A stretch of DNA of 64,000 nucleotides from Felis catus. Lineage: Eukaryota. Below are positions 14,915 through 57,522 of this stretch, piece by piece (within the stretch, counting starts at the first letter, position 1; each line of letters begins with the position of its first letter). Under the pieces are notes generated by a model. The model saw only the letters and a program-made list of their open reading frames with translations. It was not told the DNA's origin and made no database searches. Location: contig NC_058368.1 of NCBI RefSeq assembly GCF_018350175.1, positions 100,504,001 to 100,568,000 on the forward strand, written 5' to 3'. Position numbers and translations under genes: made by a program.

Positions 14915-15309
14915 AAATATATAAATATAAATATATAAATATTAAATAAATAAATATATAAAATATACAAATAAATAAATATATAAAATATATATAAATA
15001 TATATAAATATATTATTGTATATAATTAAATATTTATATTTATATATACATTTTATATATAATTCATATATAAATTTTTATATATAAATATTTAAATATT
15101 TAATTATATATAATCATTTAATCAATAGAATTGAATCAATAGAATTATTGATCTATTTAATCAATAGAATTAAATATATATTTATATATAAAAATTATAT
15201 ATAAAAATATAAAAATATAAAAATATATTAAAATATGTTATATATAAATATTATAAATATATATAAATATATATTTCAAAATATATAAATATACATATTT
15301 ATATATATA
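14915..15309. repeat. AT-rich low-complexity tract (~395 bp)
   Basis: Almost pure A/T with (TA)n-like units, interrupting L1 ORF2. Confidence 0.95.
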
Positions 15310-34854: not shown

Positions 34855-36667
34855 TTTAAGAATTTATTTATTGTTTAATTTACATCCAAGTTAGTTAGCA
34901 TATAGTGCAACAATGATTTCAGGAGTAGATTCCTTAATGCCCCTACCCATTTAGCCCATGTCCCCCTCCCACACCCCCTCAAGCAACCCTCTGCTTATTC
35001 TCTATATTTAAGAGTTTCTTATGTTTCTTCCCCTCCCTGTATTTATATTCTTTTTGCTTCTCTTCCCTTACGTTCATCGGTTCTGTGTCTTAAAGTCCTC
35101 ATATGAGTGAAGTCATATGCTATTTGTCTTTCTCTGACTGACTAATTTCACTTACCATAACACCCCCTAGTTCCATCCACATAGTTGCAAATGGCAAGAT
35201 TTCATTCTTTTTGATTGTCAACTAATACTCCATTGTATGACATTTGGGCTCTTTCCATACTTTGGCTGTTGTTGATAGTGCTGCAGTAAACATTGGGGTG
35301 CATGTGCCCCTTCAAAACAGCATCCCTGTATCCCTTGGATAAATACCTAGTAATGCGATTGCTGGGTCATAGGGTAGTTCTATTTTTAATTTTTTGAGGA
35401 ACCTCTGTACTGTTTTCCAGAGTGGCTGCACCAGTTTGCATTCCCACCAGCAGCGCAAAAGAGATCCTCTTTTTTCGCATCCGCACCAACATCTGTTGTT
35501 GCCTGAGTCGTTAAGGTGAGCCATTCTGACAGGTGTGAGGTGGTACCTCATCGTGGTTCTGATTTGTATTTCCCTGATGATGAGTGATGTGGAGCATTTT
35601 TTTCATGTGTGGGTTGGCCATCTGGATGTCTTCTTTGGAGAAATGTCTATTCATGTCTTTTGCCCATTTCTTCACTGGATTGTTTGTGTTTTTGGGTGTT
35701 CTTTATAGATTTTGGATACTAACTCTTTATCTGATATGTCATTTGCAAATATCTTCTCCCATTCTGTAGGTTGCCTTTTAGTTTTGCTGATTGTTTCCTT
35801 TGCTGTGCAGAAGCTTTTTATTTTGATGAAGTCCCAATGGTTCATTTTTGCTGTTGTTTCTCTTGCCTCTGGAGACGTGTTGAGTAAGAAGTTGCTGCAG
35901 CCGAGGTCAAAGAGGTTTTTGCCTGCTTTCTCCTCGAGGATTTTAATGGCTTCCTGTCTTACGTTTAGGTCTTTCAACCATTTTGAGTTTATCTTTGCAT
36001 ATGGTGTAAGAAAGTGGTCCAGGTTCATTCTTCTGCATGTCACTGTCCAGTTTTCCCAGCACCACTTGCTGAAGAAGCTGTCTTTATTCCATTGGATATT
36101 CTTTCCTGCTTCATCAAAGATTAGTTGGCCATACGTTTGTGGGTCCATTTCTGGGTCCTCTATTCTGTTCCATTCATCTGAGTGTCAGTTTTTATGCCAG
36201 TACCATACTGTTTTGATGATTACAGCTTTGTAATATCGCTTGAAGTCCAGGACTATGATGCCTGCTGCTTTGGTTTTCTTCTTCAAGATTGCTTTGGCTA
36301 TTCAGGGTCTTTTCTGGTTCCATACAAATTTTAGGATTGTTTGTTCTAGCTCTGTGAAGAATGCTGGTGTTATTTTGATAGAGATTGCATTGGATATGAG
36401 GATTGCTTTGGGTAGTATTGACATTTTATTATTTTCTAATTTTTTTTGAAGTTTATTCATTTTGGGGAGAGAGAGAATGTGAGTGGAGGAGGGGTAGAGA
36501 GAGAGACACACACAGAATCTGAAGCAGGCTCCAGGCTCTGACCTGTCAGCACAGAGCCCGACGTGGGCCTCGAACCCAGGAACTGTGAGATCATGACATG
36601 AGCTAAAGTCAGATGCTTAGCCGACTGAGCCACCCAGGTGTCCCTTTGGGTAGTATTGACATTTTAA
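34855..36667 (-). mobile_element. 5'-truncated carnivore/felid L1 (ORF2 C-terminus plus 3'UTR), frameshifted
   Basis: ORFs [19 protein letters not shown] and [20 protein letters not shown] are L1 ORF2 C-terminal segments; A-rich tail near 34855. Confidence 0.95.
36429..36643 (-). mobile_element. Can-SINE in L1 5' end
   Basis: Bounded by ctttgggtagtattgacatttta at 36406-36428 and 36644-36666. Confidence 0.95.
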
Positions 36668-38649: not shown

Positions 38650-39170
38650 ATTGAGTGGTCCTTCCCGTGACCTTACAGATCCCGCCTGCACACATGAGCT
38701 GACCCCCCCGCCTTGCCCCCCTCATTCCAGCCATGCTCGCCTGCTGTTGCTCCAAGTCTTAGCATGCACCTGCTTCCGAGCCTGGTATGTGCTGATCCGT
38801 TTGGAACACTCCTCCTGTGGTTATCATCCCCAGGGCTTGTCTTCCGCAATTCCCTTAACGCCTCTTCCCAAATGCCGTTTTCCCAGAGAAGACTTTGCTG
38901 TCAAATAAACAAACAAACAAACAAATAACCAGAAAAGCTTTCTCTCTGTGAAAAAGTGCCCAGGTCATCACGTAGCCTTTACTCTTCTTTTTCCTTCACA
39001 GTGCACCCCTCCAGATGGATCTCACAAGTTTAGCATCTGTCTCCCCCAGCTAGACTGTGGGCTCTCTAAGGGCAGGATGCTGGCCATTTCATGCATTCAC
39101 TACGGAATCCCCAGAACTTGGATCGGCACCTGGCACATTGTAGGTACTCAATCAATTTTTGTTGAATAAA
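38650..39170 (+). mobile_element. L2 3' fragment
   Basis: ctagactgtgggctctctaagggcagg...cacctggcacattgtaggtactcaatcaatttttgttgaataaat is the L2 terminus. Confidence 0.75.
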
Positions 39171-39917
39171 TATTAAATGCTTATATACTTTGCCAGATAT
39201 AATTACCAGCAGTTCCAGACATTTGCTTCTACAGACCTTGCGAGAGCTGCTGGGAGAAATCTTGTTACCATTATCACTATTTGAGCGTTGGATTCAAAGA
39301 AGTTAAATTATCCAAAACTGCCCATTGAGTGGGTGATGGATGTGGCTGTGATCCCAGGACTGTCTTAGTCTGCGCTCTTAGCCTAATAACCCCTTTCAGT
39401 GAAATGATTATATAAATACAGTCAGCCTTGAAGTAGTAACAGAAACTCCTGTCGAATTGTATACATCATTGGGACTTTGCCTGGTCCCTGCTCGTGAAAA
39501 TAAGACAGAAAACTGCATCCAGGCCGGTATTGGCAGGTTCTGTCACTGCTATAATTGAGTTCCTTTCCTCCCTGGAGCCCCATCTTCCTTCCTTTTCTGG
39601 ACGAGAGCTCTCAAGGAAAAGTTTGGGTGAATTATCTTTAATTCGAAAATCAAGGGCAGAAAAGCAAACTCTCTTGGTAATTGCAGGAGGATTGAAGGGG
39701 GGGGATATTTAAAATCACAGGTTTGTTTCTGATGCCAGGAGAAGGCTGTTGAGGGCAAGGGATTGGAGCTTGGGATGAAATGACCAACAGCCAGATTCTC
39801 TTTCTGAGACCCTGCCAGCGCTCAGTCTGTAGAAGGAATTTAGGAGATTGGGGAGTGTGTGCTAGTCCCGGGAAGATAATGGCTTGGTTTTGTCTTCCCT
39901 GTTCTAGCACCTCCCGT

Positions 39918-40270
39918 TTGATTGCTTTCTGAGTGGCAGGCACCATACCGTGCACATAACCTACTATGTCCCTGCAAACTCTCAGCGAGAGCAGGGATTT
40001 GACTATCCGTGTGTTCATCGCTTAGAAACACCAGCCCTTGCTCAAAACATTAGTAACTAAATACATAGTGGTCGCTGAATACCATCTATTTTATCTGTGG
40101 AGTTAGACGCCAAAAGATTCTGGGTTTTTTCATTACAGAATACATGCCTGCACATCTGTTTAGCTTGGTGGATACAGAAGTAGGAAACCTAGGCTGGAGT
40201 CAAACGTAGCCTTGTATGCTCAGATTGGTTCTTCCGCATGACTTTTGCAGTATTGAGACGAGACAAACTC
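39918..40270 (+). repeat. 353-bp direct repeat, copy 1
   Basis: Same sequence as 40641-40993 at constant offset 723; ORF track shows the identical peptide starting at 40018 and 40741. Confidence 0.97.
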
Positions 40271-40640
40271 TCCGCCATAAACTTCTCTCTTTACACGGCT
40301 CGTGTTCCTGGTACGGCCTCATTCACCAGCACACCTGAAACTAATGACGTTGGTTAGCGTACTCACCGAGGTAGCGATTGTCAGTAACAGTGAGCCAGGC
40401 GGTGGGCGACAGCCTGCTAGAATCTTAGACGACAATCAGAGGAACCCCCTAAGATTGGGTCCATCTCCTTGGGGGCAGGATCACAGGGTTTTCAAAGACC
40501 AAGGATACATTTCTAGTAAAATAAAATAAAGACATAAGGGCACAAGGGTTCCCATAAAAATAAAAAAATGAAAATGAAAATGAAGAAAAGCAAGGAGGAG
40601 GACATAGTCCTGGGCTGCGGAGACAGCAAGGTTACGGTAA

Positions 40641-40993
40641 TTGATTGCTTTCTGAGTGGCAGGCACCATACCGTGCACATAACCTACTATGTCCCTGCAA
40701 ACTCTCAGCGAGAGCAGGGATTTGACTATCCGTGTGTTCATCGCTTAGAAACACCAGCCCTTGCTCAAAACATTAGTAACTAAATACATAGTGGTCGCTG
40801 AATACCATCTATTTTATCTGTGGAGTTAGACGCCAAAAGATTCTGGGTTTTTTCATTACAGAATACATGCCTGCACATCTGTTTAGCTTGGTGGATACAG
40901 AAGTAGGAAACCTAGGCTGGAGTCAAACGTAGCCTTGTATGCTCAGATTGGTTCTTCCGCATGACTTTTGCAGTATTGAGACGAGACAAACTC
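40641..40993 (+). repeat. 353-bp direct repeat, copy 2
   Basis: ttgattgctttctgag...gagacgagacaaactc, matching copy 1. Confidence 0.97.
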
Positions 40994-41547
40994 AATGCAG
41001 GGCCCCATGCAGTTCCCTTGCTGGCCAGCAGAGAGCGCTGTTGGCATGCACATGTAACCTTGCATCTCCAGCCAGGCCAAGCTTCGCTTACAGTCTTCCT
41101 GGAACGGGGTTTGATATGGGGAGGACAGCTTAGGTGAAGGTAAAAAGCACTGGACTCAGAATGAGGAGACATAAGATACAACCGTAGCCCAAGCTCATCC
41201 TTGGCAAGTCTCTGTGAATCAGTTTGGGGGCTGTCAAAGGAGGGGGTGGGCTGGACTAGTAAAAAAAATATCCTTTTCCATGTCCTGAGCACTTACTGCA
41301 TGCCAGACCCCATGCGAGGCCCTTCCATCAGCAGGGGTACCAATCCTGACTCTGCTGTACGTGGGGGATCTCTGTGATTTGGGTCAAGTTACTCACTCTC
41401 TTTAAACTTCAGTTTCCTTGTCTACTGATTAGCTAGAACAAATCTTCCTGAAATTACCCTGAGAATTAAATTAAGTGGATGTATACAAAGCCTTTAGACA
41501 CATCACCCGACCTGTCAACAAACGGCAGCTACCATCAATTACCGATT

Positions 41548-41767
41548 TCTTTTTTTCTTGTTTTTCTTTAAGTTTATTTATTTATTTATTTTGAAAGAGA
41601 GAGAGCACGAGCAAGGGAGGGGGAGAGAAAGAGAGAGAGAGAGAGAGAGAAGGGTTAGCACAAAATCCAGTGGGAGGCTCAAACCCAAGAAGCCAATCGC
41701 AAGATGATGCCTGAGCTGAAATCGAGAGTCTGGTGCCCACACGGGCTGAGCCCCCCAAGCATCCCCA
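41548..41767 (-). mobile_element. Can-SINE (older)
   Basis: Reverse body; TSD ttaccgatttc on both sides. Confidence 0.9.
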
Positions 41768-41902
41768 GTTACCGATTTCATTTTATCTCCACAATCATCC
41801 TGCAAGGTAGCGAGTCCATATTTTCTGTTCTGTAAGGACTCCTGAGGCTCAGTGATGTTCAGAATGTAGCTGTGGTGACCTAGTGTAAAAGTAGCATCAC
41901 CT

Positions 41903-42132
41903 GGGGACGCCTGGGTGGTGCAGTTGGTTAAGCGTCCGACTTCAGGCAGGGAACGATCTCGCGGTCCGTGAGTTCGAGCCCCGCATCGGGCTCTGGGCTG
42001 ATGGCTCGGAGCCTGGAGCCTGTTTCCGATTCTGTGTCTCTCTCTCTCTCTGCCCCTCCCCCGTTCATGCTCTGTCTCTCTCTGTCCCAAAAATAAATAA
42101 AAAACGTTGAAAAAAAAATTTTTTTTTTCAAA
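41903..42132 (+). mobile_element. Young SINEC_Fc
   Basis: CpG-retaining body; perfect TSD aaaagtagcatcacct(gg) 41887-41904 / 42133-42150. Confidence 0.96.
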
Positions 42133-43069
42133 AAAAGTAGCATCACCTGGATCAAAATCGAGCAGTGATCTTTCTACCACACTATGCTAAGCATTCTTCA
42201 ATCTTACACACTAAATTTGAACTCTTCCATCTTTTGGACTCTCACTTAGCCATGGGACTGAGCAGGTGGAAGCAGAAACAGCGTGACATTCACAAGATAC
42301 ACTAGGCTAAGCGAGCCACCCCCTAGGATCAGAGCAAGCTTACCACGTAAGGAGAGATGGAGTCAGCTCTGAAACTTGCCAGTTTGGTACCAGCCGCTTT
42401 AACCTAATGTCTTGGCAACTTTTGTGGTTGTTGTTTCGGCCGCTTTCTTTCACCCTTCAAAGTATGTGTGGAAATTAACTTTGTAAGGGGGGTATAAGTC
42501 ATCTTTTATCTAGAGATATCTGAAGGAGCAGTGTTAAATCAAGGGCTCTTGAATAAAGTCTCACAAAACGCCACTTGGGAAGCTTCTGCTTCCCCAATGT
42601 GTTGCCCTTCATCCAAGTAGATGGAACCCTCCCCTGCACCTGCCCCCCTTATGGACAAGGACCTTCCCGCTGCTGGATTGTATCACGCCACACTTAGCGC
42701 CTTAAGAATAACACAAGCCACCATCTATGTCTGCCTCCCTGTTCCATTCTGTGCTCAACACCCAACACATACTGTTCTCTGTTCTCCCAACAACACTGCA
42801 GTGTTTGGTTTTTTTTTTGTTTGTTTTTTTTTTTTTTTTTTTTGCCTGTTTGACAACTGGGGAAACAGAAGCCTGGAAGGAAGGGTGGTGAACCCCATAG
42901 TACATGACCGAACGGGGATGTGAACTCAGGATTGTTGGACTCCAGATGCCACTGCCCTTCTACCCCTCAATTTCCCCTCCCCAATAGTCCTCGCTATAGA
43001 AAAGGACTCTCTTCTGCACCTCAAGCTACCTCATGTCTTTGGAGAGCCACAGGGCTGTGTTCTGGCTCA

Positions 43070-43511
43070 GTTTGGTTGGTTTTTGTAAGAAGCATTCACT
43101 CTCCCGTCCCTTGTAGGCTTTCTAATAGGAGGAGCCTGGGATACGTTTCTTTCTCTTCCTTCGCACGCGGGTTCTGGGTAAAAATCTGTGCTCTGGACGC
43201 AGTGGGATGCATTGCATTGGATTTGGAAAGTTGGAAGCTCTTCTTTCCCCACCGACAGTGGCAACAGAGGCGTGGGCTGTGGAGAAGAGTAGCCTCCGTG
43301 CCCCCCTACCGATCACCAGCTCAGTGCTGAGGTGGTTCTCCAGGATCGCAACGGTTTCTGCAGCTCTCTGACTCCGGACCGCAGCTATGGCAGTGAACCC
43401 AGAAGCTAGTCACAGACGCCTAGCCTTTCTAGTCCTTTTGTCAGCACTTTAGTCTCTGTTTGAAATACTTCTAGTTATTTCTCCTTTCCTGTCTAAACCC
43501 TGACCGGTATT
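43070..43511 (+). mobile_element. Old ERVL-type LTR (family uncertain)
   Basis: 3' end ctctgtttgaaatac..tttcctgtctaaaccctgaccggta. Confidence 0.4.
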
Positions 43512-43800
43512 ATTCATAGCTTCTTCTGCATGCTTCTTTTCTTCTAAATACTCCTTAAATACAAGGGTGCTCTTAGATTCCGGATCTTCCTTTCCTGTCT
43601 TCTTACTTAAGACACTGTTTGGGATACCACTTGTATCTATGTTTTCACTTATAATCTTTATGCCAGTGATGTCCAGTTCGGCATTTCCAGCCTAGACCTC
43701 TGCTGTGAGCTCCCGTACATGTAGCCAAACCTTCAACGAGCACATTCATGTGAATATCTCACGTGCGTCACTGGGCACATTCACATGAATATCTTGAGTG

Positions 43801-44637
43801 TGTCCTAGTCCACATACTTTTGCTAGGTAGCAAACCACCCCAAAACATAGTGGTTTAAAACACCCATTTTAGGGGTGCCTGGGTGGCTCAGTTGGTTGAG
43901 AGACCGACTTCGGCTCAGGTCATGACCTCACAGTTTTTGAGTTGGAGCCCTGCATTCGGCTCTGTGCTGACAGCTCAGAGCCTGGAGCCTGCTTCCGATT
44001 CTATGTCTCCCTCTCTCTGTCCCTCTCCCACTAATGCTCTGTCTCTCTCTGTCTCAGAAATAAACAAATGTAAAAAAAAATTAAAAAACAAAACAAAACA
44101 AAAAAAAAAAACACCCACTTTACTATGCTCACAGATTCTTTGGGCCAGGATTTCAAAGGGGACACATGAGAGCTGGCTGATCTGTAATACACCATGTCAG
44201 AGACCTCAGTGGGGACAATTCAAGGTTCAGGCAAGTTGACAGTTTGGGCCTAAAATCATGTGGATATGTTTGGCGGTTGATGTGACCTGTTGGTTGAAAG
44301 CTTGGTGGAGCTGTTGCTGGGAAAACTGCACGGAGCCTCTGCATGTGGTGTCTCCACCTGGTGCCATTTTGGACATCCTCCCAATATGGCACCTGCATCC
44401 TGAGAGTAAGCATCCCAAGAGGGCAACAGAATAGGAGTGCGTGAAATTTTTATGATACAGCTTTATAAATCACATGGCATCAATTCTGTCATATTTCGTA
44501 TTTGTCATGGCAGTCACAAAGTCCCCACCCAGGTTCAGAAGGAAGGAACATAGACCCCCGTCTCTGAGCGGTGGACATATTGAAATCCAAATGTGATGAG
44601 AGCATGTGACCATCTCTAGAAAATACGATCTGCCACA
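43801..44637 (-). mobile_element. MLT1-type MaLR LTR, split by a SINE
   Basis: gcaaaccaccccaaaacatagtggtttaaaaca..ctcacagattct...aatacgatctgccaca. Confidence 0.8.
43872..44107 (+). mobile_element. Can-SINE in MLT1
   Basis: TSD aaaacacccatttta/aaaacacccacttta. Confidence 0.94.
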
Positions 44638-46879
44638 TATGAAAAACTCAGCATGTCCAAAACCCAAATCATCATCTTTCCTGCCCTCCTAATCTGCATG
44701 CCCTTAGTGAGTAATGCCATTATCCCTCAGTCACATGAGCCAGAAACTTGGGAGTTGAGCCAGAATCCTACCCAACCCCCTCACACGGAACCCTAGTTCC
44801 CACCCACTTAATTTGTTATCCAGTTCTTCCAGTCTTGCATTCTAAATAGATCTAGAACATATCTCTGTTTATGCCCATGGCTTTGGTTCAGGCCATCCAA
44901 TTAGGCGCCTGTCTCTCTCCTTGTTCTGGCTTCCCCCTCTCCACCCACCCCCAGGTCACACCTGTTTTCTGAGCTGCTGTCACGGTCCTTTTCTGAATTC
45001 CAAATCAGAGCTCAATACCCTTCATGGGCTCCCCAAACACCCTAATTTACTGTGTCGAGCCATCAACATGAGCTCTTCCTCTACCTCACTCTCATGGTGA
45101 CCATCTTTACCCTCCAGCTATACCAACCCATTTCTGGGTCCCCAAAGTCACTGAGGACCCTTCCACTGCTGCAGAGCCCTTGTGCACTGTTGCCCCTTCT
45201 GCTGTCCTTCGTCCCCCCCCCCCCTTCCTTGCCCTCCAAGACTCAGACAAGGAATTCCCTCTTGCAGGAAGACTTCCCCATGTCTCCTCCCCCAGGCTGA
45301 GTAGGCGGCCACCTTCTTGATTTTCGTTCACTTCTTCTTTATATTTAGCTAAACCATTAGCTTGCTTTGATTTTGGCAACCTTCCAATTCTGATTGCTCT
45401 GCAAAACATATGCAATATGGAACTTTAAAGCTGAAAGGCAGCTCGCCTATATGTTCCAACTTATACAGCCAAACTTGGATGTTATCATTTTGGAAACGAG
45501 AACCGTTGTCAGCCAGGTTATACAGATCAGACGTAGGCAGGTTGGGAACTTTCTCTTTGGACCCCTAGGAAGACTTAGCCCCTCTCCTCCAGGGAAAGAG
45601 GAGGCAAGGAGATTGTTTTTTAGCTTTTAAAAGATCTTCAGTTTTCTTTTACTGATCTCTCCGGTGAAAACATCCTTCATGAATGAATCAGGCATTTTCT
45701 TTCTTCTTTCTTTCTAATTTGTCTTATTTTACCTTTTCTGCCTAAAGTGAGGGAAAAAGCAAACTCACAGGATTCACCCTATCGAAGAAGTAACTCCAAT
45801 ACATCCAAACTAAATCAGAACTTAAGTTCTCTCTTTTCTTCTCAAGAGTATTTACTTCCTTCTTACAATGCTGCTGAAGGCAGTAGTTGATATGGTTCGA
45901 GAAAACCAACAGACATCAATAGCCCCAATAAATAAAATTGTCACAACCTCTTCAATTCCACATCTAGCTCCTTGATCTAAAACACTTTCTTCAGGAAGCC
46001 AAGGTGTGTTACTAGTAAAGTGATGTGTTTGCTCCCCAGAATGAGGAAGAGGTGAAATGTTTTTTTTAAAAAGACAGAAGAATATAGTAATAGGAAGCTG
46101 CTGTTTCTTCCCCTCTTGTGTAGGGGAGGAAAAAAGCAAAGATCATCTGTATTGCGACCGCCAGCATTTATCAGTTTTGTCTGCTCTCACTGCAGTCAGG
46201 TGCAGAGTTCTAAGAAGCAGAACCCTTGGAAATGGCTTCCATCACTCTCTCCAGTAGAACGAAGCAAGGGTGACGTGTTTTCCTACGGCAACTTCCACTG
46301 ATGCTTTAAATATAACAGGTACAAAAATACTTAATTCTTGCAGGTAAGGGAAGGAGAGGCCAAGAAGTGTTATAGTGGCTTTGAAACAAGTCATAATGAT
46401 TTGGCCTCTGTGAGACAAAGATGACACTACCTCGTTGTAGAAACTTTAGAACGTATCACCTACAAACAGAAGGAACATCTCCCATGGTCCTATCACTCAG
46501 AGATAAGCATCGCTAATATTTTAGTGCATATCCTAACAGTTCCTCTCTCTCCCCTTCTCTTTCTTCCTTCTCTCTCCATCCCCCTTCTGTGAGTGTGTGT
46601 GCGAATGTGGGCGTGTAAACGTGGACTCAGATACACGTGTTAACAGAATGAGAGCATACTTTAGTTCTTGTTTCATGACCTGAGTTTGAACCTACTTTTT
46701 GGAAACGTTTTTCTAAAATTGTATTTAATGAAACCATAGAACACCAACGTGAAATGGTAGAGGTTGTACCCAGTACTCTGCTGGTGGGTGACAATGGCCT
46801 TTGAATTATAGAATTTGGGGCATCAGTGACTGGCTAAGAAGGAAGCTGCTTTGGGTGGGAACTGGGAGGAGAATGAGAA

Positions 46880-47105
46880 ACTCAATGGTGCCAAAAACCT
46901 CGTTATTTCTACCCAACATGGACTCCACCAGTGGACATTCCATGCAGAGCCCCTGGTGACCTGACTCCGTCAGGATGGCATCACTGTCTGACGGCTTCCC
47001 CACCCAGCTCTGCTTCTTCACCATCCCTTCGCAGGCCTCGCTGCGGCTTAAACTTTGTGTTGCCAGCTCTGTCTCAGCATCTGCCTCCTGGCGAGCCTAC
47101 AGACA
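46880..47105 (+). mobile_element. LTR16-like 3' fragment
   Basis: ctctgtctcagcatctgcctcctggcgagcctacagaca terminus. Confidence 0.45.
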
Positions 47106-55177: not shown

Positions 55178-55393
55178 GTTTTTTTAACTGTTTATTCATT
55201 TTTGAGAGAGAGAGAGAGAGACAGTGTGTGAGCAGGGGAGGGGCAGAGAGAGAGAGAGACACAGGATCCAAAGCAGGCCCCAGGCTCTGAGCTGTCAGCA
55301 CAGAGCCCAAGGTGGGGCTTGAACTCACACAACGTGAGATCATGACCTGAGCCGAAGTCAGACGCTCAACCAACTGAGCCACCCAGGCACCCC
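55178..55393 (-). mobile_element. Can-SINE
   Basis: TSD tcgagggcaat/tcgaggacaat. Confidence 0.94.
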
Positions 55394-56004: not shown

Positions 56005-56145
56005 AGGGGCATCTGGCTGGCTCAGCTGGAAGAGCATGTGACTCTTGATCTCAGGGTTATGCGTTAGAGCCACGTAAGGTGTAGAAATTACGTTAGATAC
56101 CACGTAAGGTGTAGAAATGACTTAAATAAGTGAAACTTAAAAAAG
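56005..56145 (+). mobile_element. Old short Can-SINE
   Basis: ggggcatctggctggctcag..gcatgtgactcttgatctcaggg; tail interrupted by an L1. Confidence 0.88.
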
Positions 56146-56156
56146 ATAATTAATTA

Positions 56157-57522
56157 TGGCACAAAAACAGACACACAGATCAATGCAACAGAATAGAGAA
56201 CCCAGAAATGGACCCACAAATATATGGCCAACTAATCTTTGACAAAGCAGGAAAGAATATCCAATGGAATAAAGACAGCTTCTTCAGCAAGTGGTGCTGG
56301 GAAAACTGGACAGTGACATGCAGAAGAATGAACCTGGACCACTTTCTTACACCAGACACAAAAATTAACTCAAAATGGATGAAAGACCTAAACGTAAGAC
56401 AGGAAGCCATCAGAATCCTCAAGGAGAAAGCAGGCAGAAACCTCTTTGATCTTGGCCATGGCAACTTCTTTCTCAACACGTTTCCAGAGGCAAGGGAAAC
56501 AAAAGCAAAAATGAACTATTGGGACTTCATCAAAATAAAAAGCTTCTGCACAGCAAAGGAAACAATCAGCAAGACTTGAAAACCAACTGACAGAATGGGA
56601 GAAGATATTTGCAAATCACATATCAGATAAAAAGTTAGTATCCCGAATCTATAAGGAATTTATCAAACTCAACACCCAAAACACAAATAATCCAAGGAAC
56701 AAATGGGCAAAAGACATGAATAGACACTTCTCCAAAGAAGACATCCAGATGGCCAACCGACACATGAAAAAATGCCCAACATCACTCATCATCAGAGAAA
56801 CACAAAACCACAATGAGATACCACCTCACACCTGTCAGAATGGCTCACCTTAACGACTCAGGCAACAACAGATGTTGGCGAGGATGCAGAGAAAGAGCAT
56901 CTCTCTTGCACTGCTGGTGGGAATGCAAACTGGTGCAGCCATTCTGGAAAAGAGTATGGAGGTTCCTCAAAAAACTAAAAATAGAACTACCCTATGACCC
57001 AGCAATTGCACTACTAGGTATTTTTCCAGGGGATACAGGGATGCTGTTTCGAAGGGGCCCATTGACAATAGCCAAAGTGTGGAAAGAACCCAAATGTCCA
57101 TCGATGGATGAATGGATAAAGAAGATGTGGTATATATATACAATGGAGTATTACTTGGCAGTCAAAAAGAATGAAATCTTGCCATTTGCAACTACGTGGA
57201 TGGAACTAGAGGGTGTTATGCTAAGTGAAATTAGTCAGTCAGAGAAAGACAAATATCATATGGCTTTACTCATATGGGGACTTTAAGACACAGAACAGAT
57301 GAACACAAGGGAAGGGAAGCAAAAATAATATAAAAACAGGGAGGGGGACAAAACAGAAGAGACTCTTAAATATAGAGCACAAACAGAGGGTTACTGGAGG
57401 GATTGTGGGGGAGGGGGATGGGCTAAATGGGTAGGAGCATTAAGGAATCTACTCCTGAAATCATTGTTGCACTATATGCTAGCTAACTTGGATGTAAATT
57501 TAAAAAATAAAATTAAAAATTA
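56157..57522 (+). mobile_element. 5'-truncated carnivore/felid L1 (ORF2 C-terminus plus 3'UTR)
   Basis: ORFs 56208-56579 and 56813-57286 are L1 ORF2 C-terminal; A-tail; TSD aaaaaagataat 56139-56150 / 57523-57534. Confidence 0.96.

What the first reader, a model, noticed from the sequence alone, without database searches (positions are those of the whole stretch)
39918..40993. Apparently perfect 353-bp non-tandem direct duplication flanking a 370-bp spacer
Seen: 39918-40270 recurs at 40641-40993 (offset 723) with no mismatch or indel that I could find by eye. The boundaries are sharp, and the unit is not a SINE, L1 or LTR family I recognise. Most other repeats in the window are visibly diverged. 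The repeat-spacer-repeat layout resembles a miniature LTR element (TRIM-like): copy 2 can be read TG(40642)...CA(40994), and a purine-rich run lies at about 40555-40603. Against that, copy 1 ends ..CT, there is no TSD (ccgtt vs atgca) and no TGG primer-binding site. Inference: a very recent local duplication (template switching), an unknown mini-element, or an assembly or engineered artefact. If real, it is a substrate for a 723-bp deletion by single-strand annealing or NAHR.
Basis: partly seen in the sequence, partly recalled or inferred. Interest (0 to 1): 0.7.

Follow-up and report, generated by a model that had tools for sequence, protein, structure and literature searches.

The report
Recent local duplication from DNA repair
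A 353-base stretch of non-coding cat-family DNA was copied once, recently, to a spot 370 bases downstream, most likely as a scar of DNA break repair; it is real but ordinary, and not a jumping gene.

Summary
The repeat is exact: 39918-40270 equals 40641-40993, 353 of 353 bases, spacer 370. It is not a fault of this assembly. In 2 of 2 same-species contig sets from different studies, neither flagged as the source, the spacer contig carries unit sequence at both ends and another contig runs from the unit's end into the right flank. One set has a contig that is exactly the 353-bp unit, at 2.4-3.1 times its neighbours' depth. A non-felid outgroup run (about 87% alike) holds left flank, unit and spacer in line, with the unit laid once. 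So copy 1 and the spacer are ancestral, copy 2 is new, and the mini-LTR reading fails (also no TSD, PBS or adjoining PPT). Best reading: a repair-mediated local duplication (Pace et al. 2009), under about 2 My old unless gene conversion hides its age. An imperfect inverted repeat brackets the insertion point and may mark why it broke (post hoc). The empty site, the left-flank/unit join in the species itself and polymorphism were not seen. The scan noted one duplication of this kind before, in a primate. Ordinary.

The parts
39918..40270 (.). Unit, copy 1: ancestral position, the donor
   Evidence: exact limits; outgroup contig runs left flank, 39921-40004, spacer on one diagonal (constant offset 41274-41277 from 39737 on).
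40271..40640 (.). Spacer, 370 bp of ancestral single-copy non-coding DNA, not an element interior
   Evidence: 430- and 427-bp contigs carry unit end + spacer + unit start; outgroup pieces at 40297-40364 and 40442-40518. No Pfam family at cut-off in 10 of 10 ORFs tested over the region; no Rfam match.
40641..40993 (.). Unit, copy 2: inferred new insertion, the acceptor copy, same orientation
   Evidence: identical to copy 1; both of its joins stand in X15 and X19; the outgroup contig lays on the unit once only.
40609..40635 (+). Left arm of an imperfect inverted repeat (10-bp perfect core 40626-40635) ending 5 bases before copy 2
   Evidence: score 24, reached by 2 of 1875 background positions; post hoc.
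41054..41076 (-). Right arm of the same inverted repeat, 60 bases beyond copy 2; the arms would be about 65 bases apart without copy 2
   Evidence: the hypothetical pre-insertion site folds at -33.4 kcal/mol (DNA parameters), z -3.4; 0 of 200 shuffles and 1 of 425 window segments are as stable.
40635..40645 (+). 11 bases across the spacer/copy 2 join that recur inverted at 41534-41544: possibly a 6-base templated filler plus 5 bases of microhomology
   Evidence: 1.4% of 2523 background positions have such a match; four joins were tested, so this is a lead only.
41534..41544 (-). Candidate second template for the filler above
   Evidence: inference.

Best explanation
A real, young, one-off local duplication made during repair of a germline DNA break. 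The ancestor read left flank - unit - spacer - right flank. A break (or stalled fork) at the spacer/right-flank border was mended by a free 3' end that annealed, probably by microhomology, to DNA 370-723 bases upstream on the same molecule, sister or homologue, copied 353 bases and rejoined (SDSA-like capture; microhomology-mediated template switching gives the same product). Shown: the duplication, three of its four joins in other animals, and ancestral unit and spacer. Inferred: that spacer and right flank were neighbours, the break, the pathway, and any role of the fold-back around the site. It has no function of its own; it is a neutral scar.
For: Exact 353-bp pair with no decayed homology beyond it (the one local hit of spacer against right flank, reached by 1.5% of 200 shuffles, is a 16-base A-rich match out of register). 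Spacer contigs with unit at both ends and unit-to-right-flank contigs in 2 of 2 same-species contig sets; a unit-only contig of exactly 353 bp at depth 17.1 against 7.06 and 5.51 in X19, which fits one extra copy best (unit/spacer 2.4, expected 2). Outgroup contig colinear over left flank, unit and spacer, 580 of 670 laid bases alike, unit laid once. Size, distance and lack of a poly(A) tail fall inside the class of Pace et al. (proximal, at most 619 bp, within 5 kb). The inverted repeat that spans the site once copy 2 is removed fits spacer and right flank having been adjacent.
Against: The empty site was not seen: the outgroup contig has 634 letters beyond the spacer's end that the tool did not show, and only 84 of 353 unit bases were laid, so a second, diverged outgroup copy could be missed. 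Microhomology, filler and deletion at the joins cannot be scored without it. The left-flank/unit join was not seen in the species itself (no left-flank contig laid in X15 or X19; X15 also laid no unit contig). The raw-read run X24 put 4 reads on the left flank and 0 on unit or spacer, where about 3.5 fragments were expected (P about 0.03; the tool warns that its filter makes dips meaningless). Unit/right-flank depth of 3.1 is above the expected 2.
Confidence: 0.8

Rival explanations
1. A 723-bp tandem duplication of unit + spacer (replication slippage or end joining) whose second spacer was lost afterwards or skipped in the same event, leaving unit - spacer - unit.
For: Gives the same final order and the same joins as seen; tandem duplications are the commonest short duplications (recalled; title of Messer and Arndt 2007 seen in a reference list).
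Against: Needs a second, precise loss of all 370 bases: no spacer remnant follows copy 2 (2 of 10 and 9 of 40 bases match). Depth in X19 fits one spacer (unit/spacer 2.4; two spacers predict 1.5).
Confidence: 0.1
2. An old duplication kept identical by recent gene conversion between the two copies.
For: The copies are close and in direct orientation; the outgroup's sequence after the spacer was not seen.
Against: Identity stops dead at both ends with no diverged shoulder; the outgroup contig lays on the unit once although it runs 634 letters past the spacer.
Confidence: 0.05
3. An artefact of this assembly (false duplication at a contig overlap or merged haplotypes), or an engineered insert.
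For: 100% identity; all 20 holder runs score 0.99, none 1.00, of 204 sampled words; left-flank/unit join not seen directly; no long read spans the locus.
Against: Unit-to-spacer, spacer-to-unit and unit-to-right-flank joins stand in contigs of two runs from different studies that are not marked as possible sources; unit and spacer have outgroup orthologues in place.
Confidence: 0.02
4. A miniature LTR retroelement (TRIM-like) with 353-bp terminal repeats and a 370-bp interior.
For: Repeat - spacer - repeat layout; TG at 39919/40642 and CA ending at 40994.
Against: No 4-6 bp TSD for any boundary shift within 4 bases; no TGG after either repeat on either strand; no PPT next to a repeat; no TATA or AATAAA-type signal in the unit; copy 1 ends CT. 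Unit and spacer are old in-place DNA in the outgroup, and no further copy laid at 80% likeness in two whole contig sets.
Confidence: 0.01

Closest known systems
Repair-mediated duplications (RDs) by capture of proximal DNA; Pace, Sen, Batzer and Feschotte 2009, PMC2671141 (read: abstract, introduction, results and most of the discussion, parts 1-5 of 8)
   Same: One donor and one acceptor on the same chromosome, more than 50 bp and under 5 kb apart; 353 bp lies under their maximum of 619; no poly(A/T) tail; identical pairs occur (7 human-specific cases, 1 of 10 tested RDs polymorphic); 192 RDs were counted in dog; deletion of the intervening DNA is named as a possible consequence.
   Different: Longer than their mean (162 bp) and closer than their average distance (1.2 kb). 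Their cases were found inside annotated transposons and confirmed by empty sites; neither could be tested here. Cats were not among the species surveyed.
Microhomology-mediated templated insertions (MMB-TI / MMBIR), PMC8421209 (seen: 12 passages)
   Same: Germline insertions copied from nearby templates, sometimes through several switches and in either direction; would account for a short inverted filler at the spacer/copy 2 join.
   Different: Their search takes templates within 100 bp and the yeast signature is short and inverted; here the main copy is 353 bp, direct, from 370-723 bases away. The filler is not established.
Short paired duplications ('doublets'), Thomas et al. 2004 (not held; known only as described by Pace et al.)
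   Same: Near-identical, local, non-tandem pairs of unique DNA.
   Different: Those surveys dealt with duplicons under 100 bp; this one is 353 bp.
TRIM elements, e.g. PbTRIM, PMC3532108 (seen: 5 passages)
   Same: Two direct repeats around a short non-coding interior.
   Different: No TSD, PBS, adjoining PPT or family of copies; the parts are ancestral in place.

Membership tests
Repair-mediated duplication (Pace 2009) | Insertion of at least 50 bp with one donor, more than 50 bp and under 5 kb away | tested here: met
   353 bp, 370-bp gap.
Repair-mediated duplication (Pace 2009) | [quoted passage not shown] | tested here: inconclusive
Repair-mediated duplication (Pace 2009) | No poly(A/T) tail of 5 or more at the acceptor's ends (not a retrocopy) | tested here: met
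   Ends read.
Repair-mediated duplication (Pace 2009) | Empty orthologous acceptor site in a relative | tested here: inconclusive
   Outgroup holds flank, unit and spacer in line with the unit laid once; what follows the spacer was not shown.
Repair-mediated duplication (Pace 2009) | Microhomology, filler or small deletion at the breakpoints | tested here: inconclusive
   Needs the empty site; candidates only.
Repair-mediated duplication (Pace 2009) | Acceptor interrupts an annotated transposon (their search criterion, not a property of the mechanism) | not testable with these tools
TRIM / miniature LTR element | Two terminal direct repeats around a non-coding interior | tested here: met
TRIM / miniature LTR element | Target-site duplication of 4-6 bp | tested here: not met
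   None for boundary shifts of up to 4 bases at either end.
TRIM / miniature LTR element | Primer-binding site just after the 5' repeat | tested here: not met
   No TGG in the 25 bases after copy 1, nor after copy 2 on the minus strand; not compared with a tRNA set.
TRIM / miniature LTR element | Polypurine tract adjoining the 3' repeat | tested here: not met
   Only runs of 10 or more: purines 40592-40602 (38 bases from copy 2) and pyrimidines 40282-40292 (11 bases from copy 1).
TRIM / miniature LTR element | Whole element absent from the orthologous site of an outgroup; dispersed copies | tested here: not met
   Unit and spacer present in place in organism B; no extra copies laid.

The most novel reading that the evidence does not exclude
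The locus is a young, fully legible record of a hairpin-triggered, multi-switch germline repair: an old fold-back (arms 40609-40635 and 41054-41076) broke in its loop, the end copied 353 bases from upstream, switched through 5 bases of microhomology to an inverted template 540 bases downstream for a 6-base filler, and the insert then pushed the arms apart and defused the hairpin. The empty allele, or the 723-bp collapse, may still segregate in cats.
Probability: 0.15. Interest if true: 0.3.

Novelty: new member of a known kind. Interest (0 to 1): 0.12.

Why it matters
Little by itself: hundreds of such duplications are catalogued per mammalian genome, and this one touches no gene or RNA that could be found. 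It could serve as a presence/absence marker among cat species and as one worked example of whether fold-back DNA predicts acceptor sites, which is testable across all such duplications.

Tried and rejected
No whole genome is held for this window, so copy number genome-wide rests on laid contigs. The 0.99 word share of 20 runs does not show that they carry copy 2: an empty allele would lose about 6 sampled words, and 3 or fewer with P = 0.14; the rows are also picked for holding the sequence. X24 raw reads (about 0.8-fold depth) crossed no join and are uninformative. A 36-base piece of a second organism-B contig at 39415-39450 has unrelated loose ends and was treated as chance. A spacer-end pattern found 0 matches in JGI metagenome contigs. 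Rfam: 1 match in the whole window, a tRNA-like SINE head, and 0 at E up to 1 in 39700-41300. Pfam: 9 of 10 ORFs gave nothing, 1 gave a geminivirus AL2 hit at E 0.055, 14.4 bits against a cut-off of 26.8, rejected; 10 of the 31 ORFs listed were scanned. A crude exon scan gave 13 candidates in the window, none in 39200-46900, none followed up. A GAGACA hexamer on both sides of copy 2 (40620-40625, 40983-40988) is at chance level for 961 boundary pairs. The four existing joins show no unusual folding (z -1.5 to +1.2) and no G4 motif lies in 39000-42000. The cat structural-variant table (S6 Data of PMC7581003) was too large to read, so polymorphism stays open. Thomas et al. 2004 was not held. Four paper searches were run; none looked for this locus, so I make no claim that it is unreported.

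Full report
Observation. The window is mammalian, rich in carnivore-type SINEs (family recognised from memory; repeats), and earlier notes on the same genome call it a felid. Exact extension gives 39918-40270 = 40641-40993: 353 of 353 bases, offset 723, spacer 370, no N in the window. The next longest exact direct repeats are a 55-bp microsatellite and a 46-bp SINE match. Identity stops at once on both sides: 0 of 10 bases match to the left, 2 of 10 to the right. Neither unit nor spacer has another copy in the window apart from A-rich hits. Ten of 31 overlapping ORFs were scanned against Pfam with no hit at cut-off, and Rfam finds nothing at 39700-41300. Below, A is the left flank, U the unit, S the spacer and B the right flank.

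Is it real? The run search listed 24 runs; 20 hold 0.99 of 204 sampled words, all of one organism, from 10 studies, 14 of them marked as possible sources. I laid 4 of the 24 on 39200-40665 at 80% likeness: two unmarked same-species contig sets from different studies (X15, X19), one raw-read run of the same species (X24) and one run of another organism (X23). X19 has a contig of exactly 353 bp covering U (depth 17.1), a 430-bp contig that starts with the last 30 bases of U, runs through S and ends in the first 30 bases of U (7.06), and a 625-bp contig that starts with the last 30 bases of U and continues with the letters of 40994 onward (5.51). X15 has the matching 427- and 623-bp contigs. The length 430 is 30+370+30, and the B contigs end at 41586-41588, at the next SINE. 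Part of the S contig was not aligned because the tool skips repeats, so the S-to-U join is read from the contig's last 27-30 letters and its length. Three of the four joins therefore exist in other animals. The A-to-U join was not seen directly: no A contig was laid in either set, and X15 laid no U contig. It is inferred from the U contig breaking at 39918, which needs a second predecessor besides S, and from the outgroup. Depth ratios fit one extra copy best (U/S 2.4 against 2 expected; U/B 3.1 is high, with 15-20% sampling error on each). S is not thinner than B in either run (1.28, 1.37), so neither animal looks heterozygous for a 723-bp collapse. X24, read at about 0.8-fold, gave 4 reads, all on A; none on U or S, where about 3.5 fragments were expected (P about 0.03). 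The tool warns that its human-likeness filter makes such dips meaningless, and I count the run as uninformative, not as support.

Which copy is new? X23 has one 3080-bp contig that lays in six pieces from 39294 to 40518, 580 of 670 bases alike (87%), on a constant diagonal from 39737 through U (39921-40004) into S (40297-40364, 40442-40518). At that divergence it is not a cat. So A, U and S are old neighbours, and copy 1 is in its ancestral place. The contig runs 634 letters past the end of S without laying on U again, which suggests a single copy, though only 84 of 353 U bases were laid at all and those 634 letters were not shown. With 0.86e-8 mutations per base per generation at 3.8 years (PMC9290555, start of abstract in a search listing), zero differences put the 95% upper age at about 1.9 My, if the cat rate applies and no gene conversion occurred.

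The mini-LTR idea fails. TRIMs have a TSD, a PBS right after the 5' repeat, a PPT before the 3' repeat and many dispersed copies (PMC3532108, passages). Here there is no 4-6 bp TSD for boundary shifts up to 4 bases, no TGG after either repeat on either strand, and no purine run adjoining a repeat. No further copies were laid, and above all the supposed LTR and interior are in place in the outgroup.

How it most likely arose. Pace et al. 2009 (PMC2671141; parts 1-5 of 8 read) describe 824 human and 192 dog duplications of 50-619 bp with the donor within 5 kb, no poly(A) tail, and microhomology, filler or small deletions at the joins, and attribute them to synthesis-dependent strand annealing at a double-strand break. 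This locus fits in size, distance, lack of tail and youth. The breakpoint signatures need the empty site, which I did not see, so the pathway is inferred. Two leads came from the joins. First, an imperfect inverted repeat (40609-40635 with 41054-41076, 10-bp perfect core) brackets copy 2. Only 2 of 1875 background positions reach its score at the pre-insertion spacing (0.5% of 1834 at today's spacing), and the site with copy 2 removed folds at -33.4 kcal/mol, z -3.4, matched by 0 of 200 dinucleotide shuffles, 1 of 425 window segments and 1 of 46 GC-matched ones. The alternative join (A to S) scores 14, near the background mean of 13. This favours S and B having been adjacent and offers a cause for the break, but the windows were chosen after the match was seen, and the left arm could itself be repair filler. 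Second, 11 bases across the S/copy 2 join recur inverted at 41534-41544, as a second template switch would leave (multi-template germline insertions: PMC8421209, passages); 1.4% of 2523 positions show as much, and four joins were tested.

Rivals. A tandem duplication of U+S with loss of the second S gives the same end product but needs a clean second deletion (0.10). An old pair homogenised by conversion is not excluded but lacks diverged shoulders (0.05). Artefact (0.02) and TRIM (0.01) are effectively refuted.

Verdict. Observation confirmed; interpretation partly supported. A new member of a known kind, with no sign of function. The scan has filed one similar case in a primate (e1-614716), seen after I had found the paper and not checked by me. 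Polymorphism stays open, since the cat structural-variant supplement could not be read. Interest 0.12.

Noticed in passing
window 34871-36199 and 56157-57506: Two L1-like 3' fragments (family recognised from memory) in opposite orientation about 20 kb apart, 88-92% complementary, longest exact stretch 110 bp at 36002-36111 / 56245-56354.
   Followed up: no
window 56062-56118: 30-bp tandem duplication (1.9 copies, 92%) at the edge of the second L1 fragment.
   Followed up: no
window 39918-40640: CpG observed/expected is 0.54 in the unit and 0.65 in the spacer against 0.30 for the window; unexplained, and below island level in G+C (44-46%).
   Followed up: no
window 39686-39737: The outgroup contig has 214 letters where the window has 50, i.e. 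about 164 extra bases, the size of a lineage-specific SINE.
   Followed up: no
window 41539-41779: Minus-strand SINE flanked by an 11-bp direct repeat (41539-41549, 41769-41779); the candidate filler template 41534-41544 overlaps its left copy.
   Followed up: partly
window 40994-41053: The 60 bases right of copy 2 hold small hairpins of their own, including an 8-bp stem, inside the loop of the larger inverted repeat; may be the remains of an old palindromic element.
   Followed up: partly
window 14915-15309: About 400 bp of degenerate AT-rich simple repeat.
   Followed up: no
window 55304-55388: The only Rfam match in the window, tRNA at 43.4 bits, lies in a SINE head.
   Followed up: no
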